From a virus, in IMG/VR virus record IMGVR_UViG_3300044994_000386, positions 22,436-86,435 of that record: 64,000 bases of DNA. The stretch is one strand, 5' to 3'. Position 1 is the stretch's first letter, and each line of letters opens with the position of its first letter. The position numbers and the translations under genes are program-made. Shown here piece after piece: positions 16,907 to 56,408 of the stretch. A model generated the notes under the pieces. That model was given only the letters and a program-made list of their open reading frames with translations. It was not told the origin of the DNA and ran no database searches.

Positions 16907-18013
16907 TTAAGCTTCGGTTTCTATTTCGACTTCACTATAAACAGTTTTGATCATTCTTTCAGATACTAAATAAGGATCACAATTTGATGCTGGTCTTCTA
17001 TCTTCAAAATAACCTCTACCTTCAACTAATGCTTGAGCTGGTATTCTAATCGAAGTATCACGTGTACTATAACCAAAACTAAACTCATGTATACCAGATG
17101 TCTCATGAGCCCCAGTCAATCTCTTTTCATTGTGTAGACCATATACTTCAATATGGGCCATGTGATTTTTTTCTAATTTACGCATTGTTTGTTTAATTAT
17201 TTCAAATCCACCTTCTTGTCTCATTTCTTTACTTGAAAAATTAACGTGACAACCGGTTCCATTCCAATCCCCCTCTATTGGCTTTGGATGTAATGAAACA
17301 TTAACGTTGTGTTTTTCAGCTACCCTTTGTAGAATATATCTTGCGACCCAAAGTTGATCAGAACCATTTAGTGCGGTTACTGGACCAATTTGAAATTCCC
17401 ATTGACCAAGCAAAACCTCGGCATTAATACCCGAAATATCTAAACCAATTTGTATACACATGTTCATGTGCTCTTCAGCGATTTCTCTACCAACAACTGT
17501 ATCCGCGCCAATGCCACAATAATAATCACCTTGTGGTCGAGGTTGACCAGATTTTCCTGACTTAAATCCTAAAGGTAGACCAATTCCTTCACCAAAAGGC
17601 ATTTCTGGCTTATGTGTTAAAGTATATTCCTGTTCCCAGCCAAACCAGGGTAGATCTGATTTATTATTATAACCATTTGTATTCTCTTTTAATCCAAGTT
17701 TTTCTATAATTTCTTGTAATTTTCTACGGTGATTGGTTTTATGTGGATTGCCTTCTGGATCTAATACTTCACATAACACTAATTTATCCATTTTTCCTCT
17801 AAAAGGATCATTTGTTATAAAAACTGGTTTTAATAGACAGTCTGTGTTTTTATTTTTTCCAGATTTGGCTTGTTTGGTTGAACTACCATCAAACGACCAA
17901 ATTGGATAATCTTCAGGATTTGTGGAATCAATCGATTCGGAAATTTTAGTTTTACTTCTTAATTGTTGTGGATTTGATCCATCTAACCAAATGTATTCTA
18001 GTTTAACTTTCAT
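16907..18013 (-). CDS. glnA: Glutamine synthetase, type II-like
   Basis: LEYIWLDG, LRSKTK, WSFDGSST, EQEY, YYCGIG, INAEV..GQWEFQIG, DWNGTGCH, RLTGAHET, YFEDRRPASNCDPY. Confidence 0.95.
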   Translation of the reverse strand: MKVKLEYIWLDGSNPQQLRSKTKISESIDSTNPEDYPIWSFDGSSTKQAKSGKNKNTDCLLKPVFITNDPFRGKMDKLVLCEVLDPEGNPHKTNHRRKLQEIIEKLGLKENTNGYNNKSDLPWFGWEQEYTLTHKPEMPFGEGIGLPLGFKSGKSGQPRPQGDYYCGIGADTVVGREIAEEHMNMCIQIGLDISGINAEVLLGQWEFQIGPVTALNGSDQLWVARYILQRVAEKHNVNVSLHPKPIEGDWNGTGCHVNFSSKEMRQEGGFEIIKQTMRKLEKNHMAHIEVYGLHNEKRLTGAHETSGIHEFSFGYSTRDTSIRIPAQALVEGRGYFEDRRPASNCDPYLVSERMIKTVYSEVEIETEA

Positions 18014-26998: not shown

Positions 26999-27721
26999 TC
27001 ATATTAATTGATTTTGCTTTTTGTAGTATTCATCGAATCCTTCAAGAAGTTTAGACATTGTAGGTGATTTTTCAGTGCCAATAATTTCATCAATGATTCC
27101 AAATTCAAGAGCTTCGTCAGAATTATACCACTTATCACGTTTAGAAAATTCAAGTATTTGATCAAAAGTTTTACCACAATTTTGAGCTAAAATTTTTAAT
27201 AGAATGTAATTATATTTTTCGGCTTCCATTTGATTGATACGGGTATCTTGAATGTTACCTTGTGTACCATGTGAAACCTGGTGTGTCATTACTTTTGAGA
27301 ATATCAAAGATGATCGTTTACCTTTTGTTCCTGATGAAAGAAGTACAGACCCCATAGAGGCACAAATACCTGTGTTTATAGTGGCTACATCAGAATTGAT
27401 ATAATTCATCACGTCTATAATACCTAATCCTGATTTAACAGAACCACCGGGCGAGTCAATGTGCATTGTGATATCTTTTTTCTCAACTGAATCAAGATAA
27501 ATTAATTGTGCTTGAATGATAGTAGACATATTATCATCCACAACACCAGTTGCCCAGATTAATCTTTCTCTCATTAAACGAGAAAAAACATCCATTTGAG
27601 TTACATTCATTTGTCTTTCTTCAAGAATGTAGGGAGTTAAAGCGTTTTCAAAATAGTCCATCTTTAATGATGAGATACCTCTGCTTTGTGAGAATTTTCT
27701 GAAATCCTTTGCGTAATCCAT
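26999..27721 (-). CDS. clpP: Clp protease proteolytic subunit
   Basis: MDVFSRLMRER, IDSPGGSV, CASMGS (catalytic Ser), MTHQ, RDKW. Confidence 0.92.
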   Translation of the reverse strand: MDYAKDFRKFSQSRGISSLKMDYFENALTPYILEERQMNVTQMDVFSRLMRERLIWATGVVDDNMSTIIQAQLIYLDSVEKKDITMHIDSPGGSVKSGLGIIDVMNYINSDVATINTGICASMGSVLLSSGTKGKRSSLIFSKVMTHQVSHGTQGNIQDTRINQMEAEKYNYILLKILAQNCGKTFDQILEFSKRDKWYNSDEALEFGIIDEIIGTEKSPTMSKLLEGFDEYYKKQNQLI

Positions 27722-29773: not shown

Positions 29774-31525
29774 ATGTTAATCATAAAATATAATGATTTC
29801 TTAGATATAAGATTAAATGAGAATGTTCAAGCAGCAAAGGCTTACTTGAGAGATTTAGCTTTGGCCAAAAAGAAAAATATAGATAAAAATGCAGAGCTAA
29901 CTCCTGAAGAAGTACGTAGAGTAGAAAACAATCCAGATTTCTTAAAAATAAAAGAAATGCTGAAAGATAACCCAGGATACACCTATGCTTTCACAAGGTT
30001 TTTCTTTGATGAGGGAATTGATATTAATGAGTTGCAAAGAGTCTATAACAAGCTTAAAGAATTAAGACAATCTCTTAATTTATTATCAATGCCCATTGAT
30101 AAGTTTGCTGATGTAAAACCATCGAATGAAGATCCACGTAAAGGTTTTGAAAGATTACTTGATGATATTGCTAAAATTGAGATTTCTCGTACTGTTAAGA
30201 AATGGGTAAATCAATTACCAAGTGATTTAAAACGCGAATACCAAAATGCTTCAGTTGTTCAAAAAGAAAAAATTAAAGGTATTGCAATAGCATTTGATGA
30301 ATTTGGTAAAGAACTAGACGGTACTAAAAATTGGGAAAAAAATAAAGAATTACAGGATTTATTTTTCTTAAAAGTTAAAAGATATAAAAATATATCCGAC
30401 TTAATTATAGCTGCAAATAATTATATTAAGGCCGCAAATAATGCTCAAATTTCTAAATTCTTACAAGCTATTCAAAAAGTTAATGTTAAATATGGCCAGA
30501 TGAATGGTGTTGAAATCATTTTTGATGAGAATAGAATTTTGATTATTGAGGTTAAATCTTTTTTTGCTAACAGAGAATTAAACTCTAATACAGCACATTG
30601 TATTGCTTCTTCTCATAGTCAGTGGGATAATTACGTCGGTGCTGATAATATATATAACAAGCAATATTATATTTACAATTTTAATTTACCACCATCTGAT
30701 AACTATTCAGTTATTGGTATTACAATTGGACCTGGAAATAAAATCACTGCATGTCATGCTAAAGATGATAGAAATATATCCGGTTCAATTAAAACTATCC
30801 TAAAACAATGGCAGAATAATTATAATATAAATGTTAATATATTAGAATTATTAGCTGCAATGACACCAGACGAAATTGAAGCCAAAAAGAAAAGAATTGC
30901 TGCAAATAAAGAAATTGTTAAACCTGGTCTTTCTATTGATAAAATTAAACATTATCTTGAAGAAGGTGCTGATCCAAATGCTCAACAAGGTAAGCCTTTA
31001 AATAATGCGGTTAAAGAAGATGATTATGATAAGGCTAAACTTTTATTGGAAAAAGGTGCCTCACCAAATATTGGTAATTCAATTAAATATGCCAAAAACC
31101 TTGATATGATTAAGTTACTAGTTGACTATGGTTCTGAAATCAATAATGATGTTTTCCTCAATATTATCAATGATTATGACGCAGTTGAGTATGTATTAAA
31201 AGCAGGAATTGATCCAAACTTTGAAAAAGGTCTTCCATTAAGAAATGCTGCTAAATTAGGTAGAACTGATATTATGAAGCTTCTTATCAAATATGGTGCT
31301 AGAATTTCTGAAAGAAGATATATGGTTGTTAAATGGGCACTTGAATGGGCACAGATTGATGCGATTAAACTATTATTTCAAGAACTTGAAAAATCAGGTA
31401 ATAGTGTTGATAAAGAATTCTTAGAAAAATCACAATTCAAACATTGGGTACAAACTTCTGATAAAGTATCTGAAGATAAAATTAAAAAAGTTCTAGACTT
31501 CTTAGATCAATATGGAACTAATTAA
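29774..31525 (+). CDS. Ankyrin-repeat protein with central HCIA (PcfJ-like) segment
   Basis: GADPNA..GKPL..AV, LLLEKGASPN, PLRNAAKLGRTDIMKLLIKYGA; TAHCIA....WDNY. Confidence 0.75.
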   Translation: MLIIKYNDFLDIRLNENVQAAKAYLRDLALAKKKNIDKNAELTPEEVRRVENNPDFLKIKEMLKDNPGYTYAFTRFFFDEGIDINELQRVYNKLKELRQSLNLLSMPIDKFADVKPSNEDPRKGFERLLDDIAKIEISRTVKKWVNQLPSDLKREYQNASVVQKEKIKGIAIAFDEFGKELDGTKNWEKNKELQDLFFLKVKRYKNISDLIIAANNYIKAANNAQISKFLQAIQKVNVKYGQMNGVEIIFDENRILIIEVKSFFANRELNSNTAHCIASSHSQWDNYVGADNIYNKQYYIYNFNLPPSDNYSVIGITIGPGNKITACHAKDDRNISGSIKTILKQWQNNYNINVNILELLAAMTPDEIEAKKKRIAANKEIVKPGLSIDKIKHYLEEGADPNAQQGKPLNNAVKEDDYDKAKLLLEKGASPNIGNSIKYAKNLDMIKLLVDYGSEINNDVFLNIINDYDAVEYVLKAGIDPNFEKGLPLRNAAKLGRTDIMKLLIKYGARISERRYMVVKWALEWAQIDAIKLLFQELEKSGNSVDKEFLEKSQFKHWVQTSDKVSEDKIKKVLDFLDQYGTN

Positions 31526-31528
31526 AAT

Positions 31529-31559
31529 AAAAAACCCACTAAAATTAGTGGGTTTTTTT
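31529..31559. terminator. Bidirectional terminator
   Basis: AAAAAACCCACTAA-aa-TTAGTGGGTTTTTT. Confidence 0.75.
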
Positions 31560-33006
31560 ATAACTCAATTGAGTTGATTCGGTTGTATAAGGCTCGTTTG
31601 TCTTCCTCCATCATTTTCATGATGTCAAAGACTCTATCAGAGAAACCAGCTAAAGCAAATACTTTAGGCTCTGGGAATTGAAGAGTTCCATATCCTTGTA
31701 AGTCCCAAGAGTAAACATAAGGATTACAGTTGAACTTCTTCTTGTAGTCGGCAAACTGAGCAGTGGGTGTATTGTAGCCAATCCAGCCCTGCATATCTGA
31801 TAAGATAATTACTCTATCATAAGATTTATTAGCCTTAATGAATATATCTTTGAAGTTAGTTCCACCACCTGAAAAATTGAACTTACTACGGATAGTAAAA
31901 ATAGAATCCATTGGATTATATTCAATGTAGCTAGCATAATTCGCAAAAGTCATAACATCACAGCTATTAGCTTTAGCAATCATAGCACCAAATAGAGATG
32001 CAATTTCAGAAGGACGACCACTCATAGAACCAGATACGTCAATGACAACCAAAGTTTCGCCATTAAATCTTGGAACATTTACTACCGAAAAATCTAAAGC
32101 TTTATTGATGGCAACCAATACTTTACGAACTTCAGATGAAGAGCCAAGTTTTGAGACTTCTTCATAAGCAGTCGAAAAACGGAAAGGTAGAACTTTAGAT
32201 TTTCGAATCATTGATTCGTCAATTAAAAGAGTACAAGCTGCATCTACCACTGATGGTGCCTGAGAAATAATATTTCTCAAGTTTTTCAAAAGAGCAAAGT
32301 AACCAATCTTACGAGTTTGAATTAACTCAGACCATGCATCGGCTTTAAGTTGACTTAATTCTTCTTCGTTAGAAGCATTTTGACCAGCCTGAGAAAGCAT
32401 AGCCTCCCAAGTATCAGTGTTTTTTAATTTACCGCTGATCAAGGCTTTCAAAGCTTCGGAATTTTTCTCGGTAGGAACCGGATGAACCAAGTTTACCACG
32501 TCAACTAATTTGAATTTTTTAGATTCACCTTTGTACTTAGCCAATTGATAAGTATCAAACTTATCGAAAGCTTTAGCAAATCCTTTTTTTAAAGAATTTG
32601 GAAATTTAGGTTTATTCTTATCGGTTTTGTAGTTAACATAGTAAGACATAATTTCAGTCATATCATCAACACGACTAACAACCTTATTATAAAAATTTTT
32701 AGACCATTCTTGACCAGAGATATATAATGCTAATTCAGCGGCAAGTACATGAGTAATACTTCTCATTCCGAATTCATCACGAGCAAAAATAGCAGCTTTA
32801 GCCGCAAATTTAGGATCAACTTTAGATAAGAGAGCCTTTAAATCGTCAATTGATTGGTCAGCCGATCGGTAAAACTGGTTGTTAACAAATGATGTCAACA
32901 ACAAAGAAACAAGAGACAGTTCATCAGTTTTGCGATAGGCTTCACCACCAGCAAGATTAATTGTTTTTGTTTTTGGTTTTGATTCTGTTTTGTTAAACTT
33001 TGACAT
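31558..33006 (-). CDS. Ro60/Rsr-like TROVE-domain RNA-binding protein with vWA domain; likely start 33006 (MSKFNK)
   Basis: NLAGGEAY, AR.EFGMRS, RVDDMTE, FDTYQLAKY, LVHP, TWE, ALLKNLRN, LPFRF, DVSGSM (MIDAS), GGT, ILSDMQ. Confidence 0.92.
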   Translation of the reverse strand: MSKFNKTESKPKTKTINLAGGEAYRKTDELSLVSLLLTSFVNNQFYRSADQSIDDLKALLSKVDPKFAAKAAIFARDEFGMRSITHVLAAELALYISGQEWSKNFYNKVVSRVDDMTEIMSYYVNYKTDKNKPKFPNSLKKGFAKAFDKFDTYQLAKYKGESKKFKLVDVVNLVHPVPTEKNSEALKALISGKLKNTDTWEAMLSQAGQNASNEEELSQLKADAWSELIQTRKIGYFALLKNLRNIISQAPSVVDAACTLLIDESMIRKSKVLPFRFSTAYEEVSKLGSSSEVRKVLVAINKALDFSVVNVPRFNGETLVVIDVSGSMSGRPSEIASLFGAMIAKANSCDVMTFANYASYIEYNPMDSIFTIRSKFNFSGGGTNFKDIFIKANKSYDRVIILSDMQGWIGYNTPTAQFADYKKKFNCNPYVYSWDLQGYGTLQFPEPKVFALAGFSDRVFDIMKMMEEDKRALYNRINSIEL

Positions 33007-33100
33007 ACTATATAAATTTATTTTGTTTTCTATAGACAAGGACTCGTAGAAATCATTATTGGCTTTTGAATCATGCGAGTGTATAAAACTCAATCTATAC

Positions 33101-33143
33101 AAAAAAAAAATCAGAGTTACTTAAACTAAATAACTCTGATTAC
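33101..33143 (-). terminator. Intrinsic terminator upstream of the Ro60 CDS (attenuator-like)
   Basis: AATCAGAGTTA / 11-nt loop / TAACTCTGATT followed by T8 on the - strand. Confidence 0.8.
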
Positions 33144-33159
33144 AAATATATATATAAAA

Positions 33160-33456
33160 TTAGACAAATAGGAAAAGCTAGTTGAGCTTTTTTTTATATT
33201 TAACTTTATCTAAATAAAAGTTAAAAAATAGTTGATTGATTTTTAGGTCTATCATCAAAACCCCAATCTTTGGTTCATTTTGGTCAGAACTGCTATTCGT
33301 AGCAAACGTCTATTTTTTTTTAATCTTCCTCTCCAAAGTATTAAGTTTTTTTTTGGATATAGAAGCATCTAAAACCATAGATAGTTTTTAGAACTTTCAT
33401 GATAGTTTTGAATTTTTCTTATCGAAGTAACTCATCCTATCACCATATTTGTCTAA
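33160..33456 (-). ncRNA. Candidate long Y-like RNA (~297 nt)
   Basis: Ends pair (TTAGACAAATA / TATTTGTCTAA); motif TGGTGA-TAGGATGAGT-TACTTCG pairs with GCTCAACTA; several internal hairpins; adjacent to Ro60. Confidence 0.65.
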
Positions 33457-33468
33457 TAATTTTAACAT

Positions 33469-33540
33469 GTAATCAGAGTAAGTTTTAGAAAAGTATTTTT
33501 CTATGCACGCGAAGTAACTTTTCTAATCACTACTGATTTT
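33469..33540 (-). ncRNA. Candidate minimal Y-like RNA / Ro60-binding element (~70 nt)
   Basis: AATCAG/CTGATT closing stem, TTAGAAAAGT/ACTTTTCTAA inner stem, same TAGTGA-N10-TACTTCG motif; begins right after a promoter. Confidence 0.65.
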
Positions 33541-33544
33541 ATTG

Positions 33545-33570
33545 TTATACATAAGGTTTTTAAAAAGTTT
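33545..33570 (-). promoter_or_regulatory. AAAC-N17-TATAA promoter for the Y-like RNA/Ro60 unit
   Basis: AAAC TTTTTAAAAACCTTATG TATAA; motif recurs at seven other loci. Confidence 0.6.
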
Positions 33571-33676
33571 ACAAAAATAATAATTTTTTTTAATAATTTG
33601 TACATATATATATGAACATATAAAATTTAATTTTTTTTAAAGTGGATTTTTTATAGTCCATTTTCTATATACTTTA

Positions 33677-36235
33677 TTAAGATCCACATGCTAAACATTC
33701 TCCAGGTTCCGAATCTAAGCTACAAGCAATTTCCGACATTTGATCTTCTACTGACTTAGGCTTTTCTTCTTTTTGTACAGTAAACTTAACAGCATCAGCA
33801 GCACTCTTAGTTCTGAAATAATACATACCGGTTTTTAGATTGGTTCTTTTGTCGCGATAAAATTTTGGATTACCGGATTTATCATAAACTACTTCAATGG
33901 TCGGATCTTTAGGAATGACAACTTGGCCTTTTTCATCAGTGATTAGATTTCTACGTCCCCAACCATAAAAATGCATTGATGTTAGCTTTCCGAAGTTAGC
34001 ATTATCCATAAATATATTCATTGATTGTGTTTGGTCAATAAAAGCACCTCTATCAGCCGCCATATCAATAACATCTTTTTGTTTAATTTCCCAAACTGTC
34101 TTGAATATTTCTTTAAGATTAACTGGAATTTCAGGTACATTTTGAACAGAACCGTTAGAAGCAATGATTTTATTCCTAACCGAATCTGACCAGATTCCAA
34201 GTTTAACTAATTCTTTCACAAGATATTTGTTTACATTTATAAACTCACCTGAAAGTACACGTCTTACATAAAGGTTTGAAGTTTGTGCTTCACAGGATGC
34301 TTCATTTCCTAAAATAGAAGCGGTTGATGCAGTTGGCATAATACATGTTGTTAAAGAGTTTCTAACGCCAAATTTTTTAATATCTTCTCTTAATTTTTTC
34401 CAATCCCATCTATCTGTTGGTGTGACACCCCATAAATCAAATTGGAATTTACCTTTAGAAATAGGGGATCCCTCATATGAAGCATAAGGACCCTTTTCTT
34501 TAGCTAAGTCACAAGAAGCCCTCATCGCTGAATAATAGATAGTTTCAAATATCTCTTTATTCAACTTTTTAGCTTCATCAGAATCATAAGGTAAATTTAA
34601 TAAGAAGAAAACATCGGCTAATCCTTGAACACCTAAACCAATTGGTCTGTGTAAGAAGTTTGAGAATTTAGCAGAAGGCGATGGATAATAATTAACATCG
34701 ATTACATTATTCAAGTTAATTGTTGCCGAGTAAGCCACTTCATATAATTTCTTGAAGTTATAAGTTTTGTTTTTATTAACAAATTTAGACAAAGAAATTG
34801 ATGCTAAGTTACATACAGCAGTTTCATTTACATATTCTTTACCATAAAATTCACCTAAGCCTAAAGATTCAAGTAAAGATTTATTCTGAAGAACTTTACT
34901 TTGAAATTTAGTAACACCAGTTGCTTCTACAATTTCAGCACAAAGATTTGAACTACGTATAATACCAATATTTGATTGATTTGATTTTTCATTGATAGCA
35001 TCTTTATATAAGATATATGGTGTACCGGTCTCAACTTGTGATTCAAGAATTTTGTTCCATAATTCACGAGCTTTAATAGTCTTTTTGCCACGACCTTCAG
35101 ACTCATATTTTAAGTAAAGTTTTCTAAACTCTTGACCATAAGTCTCGGTCAAACCTGTACATTCGTGTGGACACATCAAAGTCCAATCTTCGTCTAAGTC
35201 AACTCTTTCCATGAAAAGATCATTCATCCAAATAGCTAAGAAAAGGTCACGAGCACGTAATTCCTCTTTACCTTGATTTTTTCTTAAATCTAAAAATTCG
35301 AAGATGTCGGAGTGCCAAGGTTCAATATAAATAGCAATTGATCCTTTACGTTTTCCACCACCTTGGTCTACCGCACGAGCCGTCTCGTTGTAGATTTTCA
35401 AAAATGGAATAATACCATTGGAAGTCCCATTTGTACCAGCAATGTAAGATCCTTTGGCTCTAACTTTAGAGAATGAAATACCAATACCACCAGCATTTTT
35501 TGAAATCTGTGCTGACTCTTTTAAGGTGTTAAAGATTCCTTCAATTGAATCTTGTTCAACATCTAATAAGAAACAAGATGATAATTGTGGCCTGATAGTG
35601 CCTGAGTTGAATAAAGTAGGTGTCGCGTGAGTATAATATCCTTCCGATAGTAAATTATAAGTTTCAATTACCTTAGGAATATTTTCGCCCCATATCTGAA
35701 TTGCGGTTCTCATGTACATATATTGAGGTCTCTCTGCGACTTTACCATTGATTTTCAATAAGTAAGATTTTTCCAAAACTTTATATCCAAAATACTCAAA
35801 GTTATGATCTCTCGAGTGGACTATTGCTGAATCTAACTCATCAGCATGTTTTTGTACTATTTTGTAAAAACTTTCTGAAATTATGGGTGAGTGTTTACCA
35901 GTTTTCGGATTCACATAATTATATAAATCTCCCATTGTTTCGGAGAAACTTTTTTTAGTTTCTTTGTGTAGACTAGTTATTGCTAATCTAGATGCTAAAA
36001 TTGCATAATCTGGATGTTTTGTTGTTAGTGATGCCGCAGTCTCCATTGCAAGTTTGTCTAGAACCCTTGTTTCAACATCAGGAGTAATTCCTTCGATTAC
36101 TTTTTGTGCAACTTCAAAAGGAACGATCCATTTTGTGTCCAAACCATATGTCTGTTGATTAATGCGTTCTAAGATTTTATCTAACATCAAGGGTTCTTTT
36201 TTACCATTTCGTTTTGTTACTTTTATCATACTCAT
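33677..36235 (-). CDS. nrdA: Ribonucleotide reductase class Ia alpha subunit with ATP cone
   Basis: VTKRNG, ATPTLFN, LSSCFL, SNLCAEI, VCNLAS, MPTAS, TGMYY, C-terminal CLAC. Confidence 0.97.
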   Translation of the reverse strand: MSMIKVTKRNGKKEPLMLDKILERINQQTYGLDTKWIVPFEVAQKVIEGITPDVETRVLDKLAMETAASLTTKHPDYAILASRLAITSLHKETKKSFSETMGDLYNYVNPKTGKHSPIISESFYKIVQKHADELDSAIVHSRDHNFEYFGYKVLEKSYLLKINGKVAERPQYMYMRTAIQIWGENIPKVIETYNLLSEGYYTHATPTLFNSGTIRPQLSSCFLLDVEQDSIEGIFNTLKESAQISKNAGGIGISFSKVRAKGSYIAGTNGTSNGIIPFLKIYNETARAVDQGGGKRKGSIAIYIEPWHSDIFEFLDLRKNQGKEELRARDLFLAIWMNDLFMERVDLDEDWTLMCPHECTGLTETYGQEFRKLYLKYESEGRGKKTIKARELWNKILESQVETGTPYILYKDAINEKSNQSNIGIIRSSNLCAEIVEATGVTKFQSKVLQNKSLLESLGLGEFYGKEYVNETAVCNLASISLSKFVNKNKTYNFKKLYEVAYSATINLNNVIDVNYYPSPSAKFSNFLHRPIGLGVQGLADVFFLLNLPYDSDEAKKLNKEIFETIYYSAMRASCDLAKEKGPYASYEGSPISKGKFQFDLWGVTPTDRWDWKKLREDIKKFGVRNSLTTCIMPTASTASILGNEASCEAQTSNLYVRRVLSGEFINVNKYLVKELVKLGIWSDSVRNKIIASNGSVQNVPEIPVNLKEIFKTVWEIKQKDVIDMAADRGAFIDQTQSMNIFMDNANFGKLTSMHFYGWGRRNLITDEKGQVVIPKDPTIEVVYDKSGNPKFYRDKRTNLKTGMYYFRTKSAADAVKFTVQKEEKPKSVEDQMSEIACSLDSEPGECLACGS

Positions 36236-44942: not shown

Positions 44943-45596
44943 ATGAAATTTATAAAAAAATACGAAAATTTTAATTCAGAGCCTTTACACATATTCGATT
45001 TTGATAATACTTTAGTAGACACGCCATCTTTCGAGGAATTAGTATATAAAATGATTAAAGAAGACGTTAATGTTAAAACTTTACTGAATAGGTCTATCAA
45101 AATTTTAGGCGTTTCTATTAATGATCTGAAATGGGAAAACGGTCGAATTTATGTAAGTGATCCTGAAAATAAACTAACACCAACTAAAAATTGGATCAGA
45201 AAAGGAAAACGTTTATACCTTACACCACCAGATAAATTCTATTATTTGGATGAATCTTTACCAACTGGACTTTTAAATTTATCTGAAAAATACAAAGAAG
45301 TTAAAAATAAAGCAATTTTGACCGGTAGAACAATTGACATGAAAGATAAGATTTTAGAAACTTTGAAAAGATTAGGATTGGAAGAACCAAATTTTGGTCT
45401 TTTTTGTTATCCAAACCGTTCACAAACTTCTGATAAAGTTGCTGTCTGGAAAGGCAAAACTATTATTAAATTGATACAAGAAACAGGTTTTAAAGAAGTT
45501 TATTTCTATGAAGATAAGATTAAGTGGTTAAAAACAACCACCAAAATGGTTAAAGAAAAGTTACCGGAAGTCAAATTCAAACCAATAAAAGTTTAG
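44943..45596 (+). CDS. HAD phosphatase-like protein
   Basis: FDFDNTLVDTP, LTGR, WK, FYED; starts MKFIKKYENF. Confidence 0.7.
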   Translation: MKFIKKYENFNSEPLHIFDFDNTLVDTPSFEELVYKMIKEDVNVKTLLNRSIKILGVSINDLKWENGRIYVSDPENKLTPTKNWIRKGKRLYLTPPDKFYYLDESLPTGLLNLSEKYKEVKNKAILTGRTIDMKDKILETLKRLGLEEPNFGLFCYPNRSQTSDKVAVWKGKTIIKLIQETGFKEVYFYEDKIKWLKTTTKMVKEKLPEVKFKPIKV

Positions 45597-47089
45597 TTTA
45601 ATTCGGCCTCAAGTTGTTTGATTTCATCCAATACCTTCTTGAGTTCATCTTTTTTCTTCATCATGATCTTCTTATTCTTCTTTCTATCAGCATAAACTTC
45701 TTCAAGCATTTTAAGTGTAGGTGAGTTTCGTTTTTCAAACACCACACCATTTACACAAACCACATGCTTTTGAGGATCAATTTTAACACCATTATCGCAG
45801 TAATCTGGTCGATTAGGATCTTTAACACCAACAAAAGTTTCTGGTGCAATAAAAAATTGTCTTTGAGTTGTTGGATATAATGAGGCAAAGTCATAACAAA
45901 CTACCCACTGATTCAAGCCTTGTATTGGATCTTTAACCCAACCACCAACAATTCCTGCGTTATCATTATTATTTTTATCACCTCTAAAAAGTACGATTTT
46001 TTCTTGTTCCCTGAATCTATTTCTAAGCATCCCTTCAGTAATCGCAAGTGAACCAAGAGCATTGTTTACTGATGAAATAACATCCACAATTTTTATCCTG
46101 GCAAGCGAAGATATCGCATAAATTATTGATATGTAGTTACGAGATTCATGTATCTTTTGAACTAGAACAGAGTCAACTGCGTTATAATACATAAACGTTT
46201 CAAAATCATCTTCGTATAACTTTTGCAATGAACCGTTGTACTTAATTTTCTCAACACCAACCAATTTACTCGATACGAAGTCTAATGATGAAGACTCTTT
46301 AACTTTAATTGAAGTATCACAGATTTCATAAAGTTGCATGTAATCAAAAATCATTCTATGTGCTGGTATTTCTTGATTTGACATCCAAACTTTATTTAAT
46401 CGCTTAGTCAAAGAAGAAACTGCCGGATCAATAGTATATTCTTTACCGTTTACTGTCTTTTTTAATTTACGAGCACGATTTACCAAGTAAACCCAGTCAT
46501 AATTTACGAAGTTCCAACCCGTTATTAGTGGCATTTTTGGAATCATCTTATAAAAGAAATTATACATCATGTCAAATTCATCATCATATTTGATGTACTT
46601 AAATTTATATTCGGTGCCAAACTTTTCGAAATATTTATTAGTATTATCTTTGATACGCTTTTGCATATCTTCTGGCATATCTTTTAAACCCAAAAGAATG
46701 ATCTTATCATCGTAAACAATTGAAATAGAAAGTACGCGAGTTGGCGCGGTTTCAGCATCGGGAAATCCATCTATTATTTCGGTCTCAATATCAACAAAGT
46801 ATATCTTAGGTAAATTAAATTCAAATATTTCTTCTTTTTCTTTTTCTGGAAGAGCGTCTAAAAAATCATAAACTGAGTATCTATCTGGTTGTGAAACTGG
46901 AATCTTTTTTACTGGCTTACCATCACATGATCGATAATTTAAATCACGATCTTTATCATCTGGTTCACAAACAACATATTTGGTTGGATTATCCCAATCG
47001 TAGTATTTTAATTTAATATCTCCAGTCTTATTTACATAACTGATTATTAAACGCTTTGTGTTACTTAAATATTGACAATCCACTAACAT
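45593..47089 (-). CDS. Family B DNA polymerase N-terminal subunit (exonuclease plus motif A)
   Basis: DIET, GWNFVNYD, YNAVD, YDFASLYP; stops before motifs B and C. Confidence 0.85.
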   Translation of the reverse strand: MLVDCQYLSNTKRLIISYVNKTGDIKLKYYDWDNPTKYVVCEPDDKDRDLNYRSCDGKPVKKIPVSQPDRYSVYDFLDALPEKEKEEIFEFNLPKIYFVDIETEIIDGFPDAETAPTRVLSISIVYDDKIILLGLKDMPEDMQKRIKDNTNKYFEKFGTEYKFKYIKYDDEFDMMYNFFYKMIPKMPLITGWNFVNYDWVYLVNRARKLKKTVNGKEYTIDPAVSSLTKRLNKVWMSNQEIPAHRMIFDYMQLYEICDTSIKVKESSSLDFVSSKLVGVEKIKYNGSLQKLYEDDFETFMYYNAVDSVLVQKIHESRNYISIIYAISSLARIKIVDVISSVNNALGSLAITEGMLRNRFREQEKIVLFRGDKNNNDNAGIVGGWVKDPIQGLNQWVVCYDFASLYPTTQRQFFIAPETFVGVKDPNRPDYCDNGVKIDPQKHVVCVNGVVFEKRNSPTLKMLEEVYADRKKNKKIMMKKKDELKKVLDEIKQLEAELN

Positions 47090-56062: not shown

Positions 56063-56408
56063 TGGAGGTGGGGGTATCGAAACCCCGTCTTCTTCAGCTA
56101 AAATTAATTACTCATTTACAGGCTTAGTAAATTTTTCTAAATTTACAAAATATTCAGTTTTATATTACGTGTTATCCTGACTTTCAACGAGACTTTTACA
56201 GAGTCTTTACTGTTTGGAAACCTATTAAGCAAAAGCTACTTCGTTTACCTTTAAGATGTTGTTGCGTAGGGCAAATACTAAATCTTCTTTGCTTGCTACT
56301 TCGTTTGTGTTGCCATTTAAAGCGTTTGATACCGTTTTTGAATCGGTTAGATATCATCCGATGCCTGCATAATTAACTTTACTCTGCGAATCTATACCTT
56401 TCACCCCC
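56063..56408 (-). ncRNA. ssrA: tmRNA; tag reading frame 56314-56225
   Basis: GGGGGTG/CACCTCC-A acceptor stem with G3:U70; T arm GGGGT-TTCGAT-ACCCC; GCAGG near the 5' end and CCTGTA near the 3' end; tag ends AFA-TAA-TAG. Confidence 0.9.

What the first reader, a model, noticed from the sequence alone, without database searches (positions are those of the whole stretch)
33160..33540. Two phage-encoded Y-like RNAs sharing a stem motif but with no visible tRNA mimicry
Both elements carry TRGTGA-N10-TACTTCG with identical spacing (TAGTGA TTAGAAAAGT TACTTCG and TGGTGA TAGGATGAGT TACTTCG). The N10 sequences differ, yet each pairs with its own 3' strand opposite a pyrimidine-rich internal loop, which is covariation within one locus. 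A has a loop of about 20 nt. B has about 230 nt with 6-7 small hairpins (e.g. TGCTA-CGAA-TAGCA, ATCTA/TAGAT, TTTAACTTT/AAAGTTAAA). Established: bacterial rsr genes lie next to Y RNA genes (Deinococcus Yrn1, Salmonella YrlA/YrlB), and YrlA has tRNA-like D and T arms. No GTTCRA T-loop is visible here, so B may carry a different effector module such as a scaffold or decoy.
Basis: partly seen in the sequence, partly recalled or inferred. Interest (0 to 1): 0.8.

Follow-up and report, generated by a model that had tools for sequence, protein, structure and literature searches.

The report
Huge-phage Ro60 partner RNAs, tRNA-less
Just upstream of a huge phage's Ro60-like gene lie two conserved structured RNA genes that share the Ro60-type "handle" widespread in phage Y RNAs, but the long one carries a roughly 230-base domain of unknown function where related phages carry a tRNA look-alike.

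Summary
On the minus strand, between a ribonucleotide reductase gene and a TROVE/Ro60 gene, lie element A (33538-33471) and element B (33454-33162). Each has TRGTGA-N10-TACTTCG. The motif occurs only at these two places in 64 kb (0.13 expected).

The window is part of a huge-phage contig. Sixty-three of 70 related TROVE loci with enough upstream sequence carry both motifs. Covariation supports both handles: A has 96.5% of cells paired and 10 of 15 pairs compensatory; B has 97.8% and 11 of 18.

The handle is: closing helix, bulged U, RG:CY, YRA internal loop, 9-10 bp helix, UACUUCG. It recurs in at least 119 other viral contigs, where a tRNA-like T arm follows it.

No T arm, tRNA or Rfam family fits A or B. 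B's 180-270 nt cargo is conserved but unidentified.

These are best read as Y-like RNAs of the phage Ro60, with the tRNA-like cargo replaced: a new variant of a known kind. No expression or binding data exist.

A's 3' strand is also complementary to the 5' arm of the downstream terminator, so a Ro60-sensing attenuator is possible but unproven.

This scan has noted handle-plus-cargo RNAs beside phage Ro60 genes on other DNA before.

The parts
33563..33570 (-). Conserved upstream box AAACTTTT, a promoter-like element about 25 nt before element A
   Evidence: At least 90% conserved over 8 columns in 57 distinct upstream regions. Promoter function is inferred.
33544..33549 (-). TATAAC, a -10-like box 5 nt upstream of A's closing helix
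   Evidence: A conserved TATAA(A/C) block follows the AAACTTTT box in the upstream alignment. The consensus scan also lists promoter-like sites at 33564-33536, but the number found equals the shuffle expectation. Inferred.
33471..33538 (-). Element A, a short Y-like RNA. Closing helix AAUCAG/CUGAUU; bulged U 33532; AG:CU (33531-33530 with 33478-33477); internal loop UGA versus AACUUA; upper helix 33526-33517 with 33494-33485; apical loop starting UACUUCG (33516-33510) and ending in an A-rich stretch
   Evidence: Fold z = -4.1. RNAalifold on 41 sequences: 15 pairs, 10 with compensatory changes. 96.5% of cells paired against 33-52% when the partner is slid; covariation score above all 500 shuffles. 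Covariance model R1 scores it 73 bits, E = 8e-14, though this sequence was in the model's training alignment.
33162..33454 (-). Element B, a long Y-like RNA. Handle 5' strand 33454-33430: closing AGACAAAUA, bulged U 33445, GG 33444-33443, UGA, upper helix UAGGAUGAG. Then UACUUCG at 33429-33423. Handle 3' strand 33187-33162: GCUCAACUA, GCUUUU, CC, UAUUUGUCU
   Evidence: Handle tested on 47 sequences: 97.8% of cells paired, 11 of 18 pairs with changes on both sides, 0 of 500 shuffles as high, slid controls 24-55%. The AG:CU pair of other loci becomes GG:CC here, a compensatory change.
33188..33422 (-). Cargo domain of B, about 232 nt of several hairpins, with no tRNA-like arms. It includes hairpin 33304-33291 and the conserved core 33290-33241 (GUUCUGACCAAAAUGAAC...GAUUGGGGUU...AGACCUAAA)
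   Evidence: The window's type of B recurs in L017, L018, L021, L031, L038 and L087 and in L065. RNAalifold: 29 pairs, 11 compensatory. The T-arm search found 1 of 64 B elements against 2.6 expected by chance, and it found the L006 positive control. No Rfam match at E up to 10.
33101..33141 (-). Hairpin plus U-run: AAUCAGAGUUAUUUAGUUUAAGUAACUCUGAUU followed by a run of about ten U. An intrinsic-terminator-like end of the A-B unit, 102 nt before the TROVE start codon
   Evidence: It is the only terminator-like site in 32900-33800 (0.2 expected). It is present in nearly all related loci, and its stem covaries: 92.4% of cells paired, 8 of 9 pairs compensatory.
33468..33479 (-). Segment 2: A's 3' strand plus flank, ACUCUGAUUACA, complementary to segment 3
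   Evidence: A 12-nt exact complement of 33144-33133. Duplex energy -17.1 kcal/mol in the window.
33133..33144 (-). Segment 3: the terminator's 5' arm plus flank, UGUAAUCAGAGU
   Evidence: The core 7 bp pair in about 97% of loci. The flank pair at alignment columns 86/539 shows three pair types.
31558..33006 (-). TROVE/Ro60 homologue, 482 aa
   Evidence: Pfam TROVE 71.2 bits (cut-off 23); vWA_Ro60 weak at 20.3 bits (cut-off 27.7). PDB matches: phiLo Ro60 9L5Y/9KOP E = 2e-23, D. radiodurans Rsr 2NVO 1.7e-5, Ro60 9NEN 1.7e-5.

Best explanation
The 33570-33100 stretch (minus strand) is a small RNA gene cassette of a huge phage. It runs: promoter-like boxes, a short Y-like RNA (A), a long Y-like RNA (B), then a hairpin with a U-run. 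The phage's Ro60 (TROVE) gene follows directly.

Both RNAs close their 5' and 3' ends into the same handle: a helix, a single bulged U, two base pairs (RG:CY), an asymmetric internal loop carrying YRA (UGA here, CGA in many relatives), a 9-10 bp helix, and an invariant UACUUCG. This is the handle of phage YrlA-type Y RNAs, and I infer that it is the site bound by the phage Ro60 ring.

In many other phages the handle carries a tRNA-like T arm and D arm. In this clade the long RNA instead carries a different conserved multi-hairpin domain of 180-270 nt, and the short RNA carries only a loop. By analogy with Rsr-YrlA-PNPase and phiLo Ro60-Yrl-PNPase, the RNAs most likely gate the Ro60 ring and tether it to a partner through the cargo, redirecting RNA decay or repair during infection.

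Shown here: the elements exist, their structure is conserved and covaries, they are linked to TROVE, and they lack tRNA-like arms. Inferred: that they are transcribed, that they bind Ro60, and that the cargo tethers a partner.
For: - Motif and folds.
- TROVE gene adjacent on the same strand.
- Phage context.
- Both motifs are found in 63 of 70 distinct related loci that have at least 557 nt upstream.
- Covariation of A's handle. Covariation of B's handle.
- L006 (TROVE 57% identical) has the same handle around a T arm and D arm, and matches Rfam YrlA at 40.1 bits, E = 1.6e-7.
- The handle followed by GGTTCRA occurs in at least 119 viral contigs. Only 2 of 139 matches overlap predicted tRNAs, and 55 of the 119 loci hold a TROVE homologue. 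Their sequences show the same closing helix, bulged U, AG:CU pair, YRA loop and 3' strand.
- In L065 the whole cassette, with its terminator, lies 1.1 kb upstream of TROVE, separated from it by an ORF and tRNA genes. This argues that the RNAs are independent genes.
- Literature: two Y-like RNAs upstream of phiLo Ro60 bind it and form a complex with host PNPase (PMC12135203). Bacteria carry one tRNA-like and one hairpin Y RNA next to rsr (PMC4201824).
Against: - There is no transcript, end-mapping or binding evidence. All 10 public runs that hold the stretch are DNA.
- The internal-loop motif here is UGA, not the published CGAA. Which conserved motif Ro60 contacts is unknown.
- Rfam's YrlA and Y_RNA models give nothing on A or B.
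- Only 7-8 sequences carry the window's type of B. In them a local hairpin, U(G/C)AUAG...CUAU(C/G)A, also covaries and competes with the long-range upper helix, so B may switch conformations.
- The cargo's partner is unknown. No exoribonuclease or RNA-repair gene was seen among the 26 window ORFs scanned against Pfam.
Confidence: 0.75

Rival explanations
1. The cassette is mainly a cis-acting leader, a Ro60-sensing attenuator. A's 5' strand (segment 1) pairs with A's 3' strand (segment 2). Segment 2 can instead pair with the terminator's 5' arm (segment 3). Segment 3 otherwise pairs with segment 4 to form the terminator. Ro60 bound to A would lock 1:2, let 3:4 form and stop transcription before the TROVE gene. 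With little Ro60, 2:3 would form and transcription would read through. This rival can coexist with trans-acting Y RNAs.
For: - Segments 2 and 3 are exact complements over 12 nt in the window, and over at least 7 nt in 50 of 61 loci. For cross-locus pairs with a different core the figure is 44%.
- On the alignment the 7-bp core pairs in about 97% of cells. Six pairs show changes on both sides against 3.3 in shuffles (1 of 500 shuffles as high).
- Whenever alignment column 539 is not A, and so cannot pair with the U-run, it complements column 86. This holds in 16 of 16 loci and involves two pair types.
- Mean duplex energies: 1:2 lower stem -6.9, 2:3 -11.9, terminator hairpin -17.9 kcal/mol. Shuffled segment 3 gives -3.8 +/- 2.3.
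- The terminator ends only 28-46 nt before the TROVE ATG in most loci, which leaves little room for a separate promoter.
Against: - Most of the signal comes from nearly invariant sequence. Segments 1 and 3, and segments 2 and 4, look like duplicates, so shared ancestry or gene conversion could explain much of it.
- Exceptions exist: L044 has 3 nt and L078 5 nt of complementarity. L047 keeps a GACCAGA terminator although its A stem is UCAG/CUGA.
- Segments 2 and 3 are about 330 nt apart. A's 10-bp upper helix would hold strands 1 and 2 together.
- In L065-type loci other genes lie between the terminator and TROVE.
- There are no termination or read-through data.
Confidence: 0.25
2. B is a diverged tRNA mimic, or a mimic of another cellular RNA, whose T and D arms can no longer be recognised by sequence. 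It would then work exactly like YrlA, for example by binding PNPase.
For: The position of B's cargo in the handle is that of the tRNA-like domain in L006 and in the phage YrlA-like RNAs. phiLo Yrl RNAs bind PNPase, and no tRNA-like domain is described for them.
Against: - No T-arm-like hairpin in any of 64 B elements beyond chance, while the positive control was found.
- ARAGORN finds nothing in the Y RNA region.
- No tRNA, YrlA or tmRNA hit at permissive thresholds in the window or in six relatives. The tRNA-like parts of other phage Y RNAs do reach the tRNA model weakly.
- The cargo is three to four times longer than a tRNA-like domain.
Confidence: 0.1
3. The hairpins are incidental: AT-rich intergenic palindromes, or the terminator of the upstream ribonucleotide reductase gene, with no link to Ro60.
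For: The region is 27-31% G+C, where hairpins arise easily. A lies about 140 nt downstream of the reductase stop codon.
Against: The cassette travels with TROVE and not with the upstream gene, which differs between loci. The motif count is above chance. Compensatory changes are strong in both handles.
Confidence: 0.02

Closest known systems
YrlA (Rfam RF02553; Chen et al. 2014, PMC4201824) and the phage YrlA-like RNAs
   Same: Encoded just upstream of the Ro60/TROVE gene on the same strand. The 5' and 3' ends form a bulged stem with a CGA-type internal-loop motif. The handle sequence (GUAGYRA...UACUUCG) is the one that encloses a T arm and D arm in L006 and precedes a T arm in at least 119 other viral contigs.
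   Different: Neither A nor B has the T arm and D arm that define YrlA. There is no Rfam hit even at E = 10. B carries an unrelated domain of about 230 nt instead.
Thermus phage phiLo Yrl1/Yrl2 with phiLo Ro60 (PMC12135203; PDB 9KOP, 9L5Y)
   Same: Two Y-like RNAs directly upstream of a phage Ro60 gene, with a stem, a bulge holding a CGAA-type motif, and a second stem. phiLo Ro60 is the closest solved relative of this TROVE protein (E = 2e-23).
   Different: The host and phage type differ: a 28% G+C huge phage here. The motif is UGA/YRA rather than CGAA. B is much longer, with a conserved complex cargo. Binding and PNPase recruitment were shown for phiLo and are untested here.
Short hairpin Y RNAs: S. 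Typhimurium and M. smegmatis YrlB, D. radiodurans Yrn2 (PMC4201824)
   Same: Element A is a long hairpin Y-like RNA without a tRNA-like module, encoded beside a longer Y RNA. A and B are probably co-transcribed, because the spacer between them is only about 16 nt.
   Different: A's loop starts with UACUUCG and ends A-rich (GAAAAAU here; AAAAAACAC in most relatives). It is not a small pyrimidine-rich loop. There is no sequence similarity to those RNAs.
Metazoan Y RNA Ro60-binding helix (Stein et al. 2005, as cited in PMC4201824 and PMC12135203)
   Same: The same architecture from my own knowledge of hY/xY RNAs: terminal helix, a single bulged pyrimidine on the 5' strand, two further base pairs, an internal loop, then an upper helix.
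   Different: A different sequence: GGUC-C-GA in animals, NCAG-U-RG-YRA here. The resemblance is recalled, not tested.
Classical four-segment transcription attenuators such as trp
   Same: Segments 1:2, 2:3 and 3:4 with a U-run. The energy ranking (1:2 weakest, 2:3 intermediate, 3:4 strongest) fits.
   Different: The proposed sensor would be a protein binding a Y RNA stem, not a ribosome or a small ligand. A 300-nt structured RNA sits in the 2-3 loop. This function is unproven.

Membership tests
YrlA (Rfam RF02553) | Encoded within a few kb of a Ro60/TROVE gene, on the same strand | tested here: met
   A and B lie 156-532 nt upstream of the TROVE ATG on the minus strand.
YrlA (Rfam RF02553) | tRNA-like T arm (GGUUCRA loop) and D arm | tested here: not met
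   The T-arm search found 1 of 64 B elements, a trivial match, against 2.6 expected. The L006 control was found. ARAGORN finds nothing.
YrlA (Rfam RF02553) | Score at or above the Rfam gathering threshold (69 bits) | tested here: not met
   No YrlA hit at E up to 10 in 32900-33800 or in the 86-kb record. L006 element 1 scores 40.1 bits.
YrlA (Rfam RF02553) | 5' motif GNCGAA(N)G in the terminal stem region | tested here: inconclusive
   The internal loop reads UGA in A and B, and CGA, UGA, CAA or UAA in relatives. This resembles the published CGAA but is not identical to it. The cmscan alignment of the handle region is unreliable because it marks non-canonical pairs.
Y RNA (functional class: Ro60-bound noncoding RNA) | 5' and 3' ends pair into a bulged helix | tested here: met
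   Covariation supports both handles.
Y RNA (functional class: Ro60-bound noncoding RNA) | Physical association with Ro60 | not testable with these tools
   Needs co-purification or EMSA.
Y RNA (functional class: Ro60-bound noncoding RNA) | Discrete stable transcript | not testable with these tools
   No RNA run holds the stretch.
Phage Yrl-type Y-like RNAs (phiLo Yrl1/Yrl2) | Stem, bulge and stem with a CGAA-type motif, upstream of a phage Ro60 gene, two per locus | tested here: met
   The layout and the handle fit, with the motif variant UGA.
Ro60/TROVE protein (the partner gene) | TROVE domain above the Pfam cut-off, plus a C-terminal vWA domain | tested here: met
   TROVE scores 71.2 bits against a cut-off of 23. 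The vWA_Ro60 match is below its cut-off (20.3 against 27.7). The match to phiLo Ro60 runs nearly full length, E = 2e-23.
Intrinsic terminator / attenuator | G+C-containing hairpin followed by a U-run | tested here: met
   The stem covaries.
Intrinsic terminator / attenuator | A mutually exclusive anti-terminator pairing that controls read-through | tested here: inconclusive
   The complementarity is conserved and partly covaries. There are exceptions and no functional data.

The most novel reading that the evidence does not exclude
The Y RNA handle has two roles. First, it is a standard socket that lets phages swap cargo: a tRNA-like domain in many phages, a new 230-nt domain here. Second, in this clade the 3' strand of the short Y RNA is one arm of a four-segment attenuator, so that Ro60 occupancy of its own Y RNA sets read-through into the Ro60 gene. 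That would be a protein-titrated riboregulator built from a Y RNA, and the first cis-regulatory role for a Y RNA.
Probability: 0.2. Interest if true: 0.8.

Novelty: new variant of a known kind. Interest (0 to 1): 0.55.

Why it matters
Ro60-Y RNA particles are known in animals, bacteria and a few phages. In the described bacterial cases at least one Y RNA per species carries a tRNA mimic, which is thought to recruit PNPase.

This clade of huge phages comes mostly from lakes, with this contig from hot-spring or mat samples. It keeps the Ro60 gene and the handle but has replaced the tRNA mimic with a different conserved domain. That would show Y RNAs to be modular adaptors with exchangeable heads, and it offers a natural case for finding a second kind of Ro60 effector.

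The handle consensus derived here also picks up well over a hundred phage Y-like RNA loci. The twelve of them that were tested do not reach the Rfam YrlA threshold.

Tried and rejected
- Rfam at gathering thresholds on the window and on relatives: nothing in the Y RNA region.
- Rfam at E up to 10 on 32900-33800: only noise (6A, snoR41, nos_TCE). At E up to 1 on six relatives: nothing in their A or B elements.
- ARAGORN found no tRNA or tmRNA in the window.
- Search for YrlA in the 86-kb record: none.
- Expression: no RNA holder is listed among the 10 runs that hold the stretch.
- RNAalifold on the MAFFT alignment of the 40 non-window-type B elements recovered only the handle and two hairpins. 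The cargo is too rich in insertions and deletions for that alignment, so I give no full cargo structure.
- I first took GCTTTTCCTA as the partner of B's N10. Comparison with relatives showed that the partner is GCTCAACTA and that GCTTTT-CC is the loop strand plus the RG:CY pair.
- I considered that the terminator stem simply co-varies with A's closing stem. This was rejected as a rule: L047, L044 and L048 keep a CCAGA-type terminator although their A stems differ.
- I considered that UACUUCGA is a T-loop. This was rejected because the base after G is not conserved (A, U, C or G).
- The cmscan alignment that places the published GNCGAA motif on GAGAUAC was not relied on.

Full report
**What is there.** The finding lies on the minus strand, in the 670-nt gap between a class I ribonucleotide reductase large subunit (36235-33677) and a TROVE/Ro60 gene (33006-31558).

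The window is phage DNA. It holds a T4-type large terminase, ClpP, a family B DNA polymerase, a DnaB-type helicase and the reductase. It is part of an 86-kb IMG/VR virus record estimated to be 15% complete. Its TROVE protein is 70% identical to one in a 634-kb uncultured phage. G+C content is about 28%.

**Observation.** The two motif copies are at 33532-33510 and 33445-33423. They are the only matches in 64 kb even when one mismatch is allowed, against 0.13 expected.

Element A (33538-33471) folds into a long hairpin, z = -4.1. The stretch containing B folds with z = -4.8.

**Related loci.** I collected relatives in three ways:
- Protein-guided searches gave 4 viral loci and 80 metagenomic loci whose TROVE proteins are 66-75% identical to the window's. 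Most come from lake samples, on contigs of up to 177 kb.
- A DNA pattern gave 9 more viral stretches, on contigs of up to 483 kb.
- The 634-kb phage record gave one more locus.

Of 70 distinct loci with at least 557 nt upstream of TROVE, 63 carry both motifs and 2 carry one. Five have an ORF and tRNA genes inserted before TROVE. In one of these, L065, the whole cassette sits further upstream.

The typical order is: conserved AAACTTTT and TATAA boxes, A, a short AT-rich spacer, B, a hairpin with a U-run, then the TROVE ATG 28-46 nt later. The gene upstream of the cassette differs between loci, so the cassette travels with TROVE.

**Structure of the handle.** On 41 A elements RNAalifold predicts 15 pairs, 10 of them with compensatory changes. 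Counting gives:
- A: 96.5% of cells paired, against 33-52% when the partner is slid by 1-3 columns. The covariation score is 0.59 against 0.165 in shuffles, 0 of 500 as high.
- B, on 47 elements: 97.8% paired, 11 of 18 pairs changed on both sides, 0 of 500 shuffles as high, slid controls 24-55%.

The common handle, from outside to inside, is:
- a closing helix (NCNG/CNGN in A, 7-9 bp in B);
- one bulged U;
- two pairs, RG:CY (AG:CU in most elements, GG:CC in the window's B and its close relatives, which is itself a compensatory change);
- an internal loop with YRA on the 5' side and 5-6 U-rich bases on the 3' side;
- a 9-10 bp helix whose sequence is free to vary;
- an invariant UACUUCG.

The N10 is the upper helix.

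**Link to known Y RNAs.** L006 (TROVE 57% identical) has three elements with this handle. The first encloses GCAGGTTCGAGTCCTGT (a T arm) and GTAGCTCAGCTGGTAGAG (a D arm), and it matches Rfam YrlA at 40.1 bits, E = 1.6e-7, below the gathering score of 69.

A pattern for the handle followed by GGTTCRA found at least 119 viral contigs before the scan reached its limit. Only 2 of 139 matches overlap predicted tRNAs. Fifty-five of the 119 loci hold a TROVE homologue, often within a few hundred bases.

Read out, these are YrlA-type RNAs with the same closing helix, bulged U, AG:CU pair, CGA/UGA/UAA loop and U-rich 3' strand. Several are followed by a short hairpin RNA with the same handle. Twelve of them tested against Rfam did not reach the YrlA threshold; two tRNA-like parts reach the tRNA model weakly.

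The published picture matches. Bacteria have one tRNA-like and one hairpin Y RNA next to rsr, and 22 phages were reported with YrlA (PMC4201824). Thermus phage phiLo has two Y-like RNAs upstream of its Ro60, both bind it, and they form a complex with host PNPase (PMC12135203). phiLo Ro60 is the closest solved relative of this TROVE protein.

**No tRNA mimicry in this clade.** A search for a 5-bp stem around a TTCRA-type loop found one trivial match in 64 B elements, against 2.6 expected by chance, and it found the L006 control. ARAGORN and Rfam give nothing on A or B in the window or in relatives.

B's cargo is 180-270 nt and comes in at least two types:
- The window's type is shared with L017, L018, L021, L031, L038, L087 and L065. 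It keeps a core GUUCUGACCAAAAUGAAC...GAUUGGGGUU...AGACCUAAA (33290-33241) and several covarying hairpins.
- The commoner type shares short junction motifs with it, such as GUGAAAAAGUCCG against GGUUAAAAAGACUGG.

I could not derive a full cargo structure. In the window's type a local hairpin, U(G/C)AUAG...CUAU(C/G)A, covaries and competes with the upper helix.

**How it most likely works.** I read A and B as Y-like RNAs of the phage Ro60. They are probably co-transcribed from the conserved boxes and ended at the hairpin and U-run. The handle would bind Ro60 and the cargo would tether a partner. The cargo has been exchanged in this clade. Transcription, binding and the partner are all inferred.

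**An extra feature.** I saw this before reading other notes on the same stretch, which propose the same idea. A's 3' strand plus its flank is complementary to the 5' arm of the terminator plus its flank.
- The match is 12 nt in the window and at least 7 nt in 50 of 61 loci.
- The 7-bp core pairs in about 97% of loci. Six pairs show changes on both sides, against 3.3 in shuffles.
- Whenever the base just outside the terminator stem is not A, it complements the corresponding base after A's stem: 16 of 16 loci, two pair types.
- Energies rank as for an attenuator: 1:2 -6.9, 2:3 -11.9, terminator -17.9 kcal/mol.

Against this, most of the signal is invariant sequence that could reflect duplication. 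Exceptions exist (L044, L078, L047). In L065-type loci other genes follow the terminator. I rate a Ro60-sensing attenuator at about 0.25.

**Novelty.** This is a new variant of a known kind. Phage Ro60 with paired Y-like RNAs is published, and this scan has reported handle-plus-cargo RNAs beside phage Ro60-like genes on other DNA. I did not test those reports. What is new here is the clade-wide replacement of the tRNA-like cargo by a different conserved domain, a handle consensus that captures many phage loci which (in the twelve tested) do not reach the Rfam YrlA threshold, and the possible attenuator.

Noticed in passing
L006:2640-2990 (IMGVR_UViG_3300049472_000072): A sister locus with three handle-bearing RNAs before TROVE. 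The first has a true T arm and D arm (YrlA hit at 40.1 bits, E = 1.6e-7). The second is a short hairpin (R1 model 33.8 bits, E = 7.8e-5). The third is a shorter hairpin without the UACUUCG. Its terminator is unrelated to the CCAGA type.
   Followed up: partly
L097-L215 (viral contigs): At least 119 viral contigs carry GTAGYRA-N8-11-TACTTC followed within 35 nt by GGTTCRA. These are YrlA-like RNAs, several followed by a short hairpin RNA with the same handle, and 55 loci hold a TROVE homologue. None of 12 tested reaches the Rfam YrlA gathering score. Two tRNA-like parts (L099:5167-5222, L110:987-1057) reach the tRNA model at 31-33 bits.
   Followed up: partly
L056, L061, L065, L075, L083: In these relatives a conserved small ORF lies directly before TROVE, preceded in four of the five by an array of 2-8 tRNA genes (L061 has a single tRNA-Tyr far upstream and an HNH-like ORF). 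In L065 the A-B-terminator cassette lies 1.1 kb further upstream (931-1385) and has a variant handle, CAGAUGUUGA.
   Followed up: partly
window 33620-33665 (-): A conserved element, TATAAAAAATCCAC, followed by a hairpin-forming stretch and CATATATA, starts the cassette in nearly all loci, whatever the upstream gene. It could be the upstream gene's terminator or a second promoter.
   Followed up: no
window 33109-33141 and the terminators of related loci: The terminator stem sequence GACCAGA/UCUGGUC is conserved across loci whose TROVE proteins are only 66-75% identical, while its loop varies freely. This is unusual for a plain intrinsic terminator.
   Followed up: partly
window 56063-56408: Another note on this window proposes a phage tmRNA here. 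ARAGORN and Rfam at gathering thresholds report no tmRNA anywhere in the window.
   Followed up: no
window 16907-18013 (-), 26999-27721 (-), 29774-31525 (+), 45593-47089 (-): Other phage genes: a glutamine synthetase-like protein, ClpP, an ankyrin-repeat protein next to TROVE, and a family B DNA polymerase ORF that matches only profile positions 19-155 of the 453-position polymerase domain model, so it may be split.
   Followed up: no
(public runs): All 10 runs that hold this stretch are hot-spring or microbial-mat metagenomes, whereas most related loci come from lake metagenomes.
   Followed up: no
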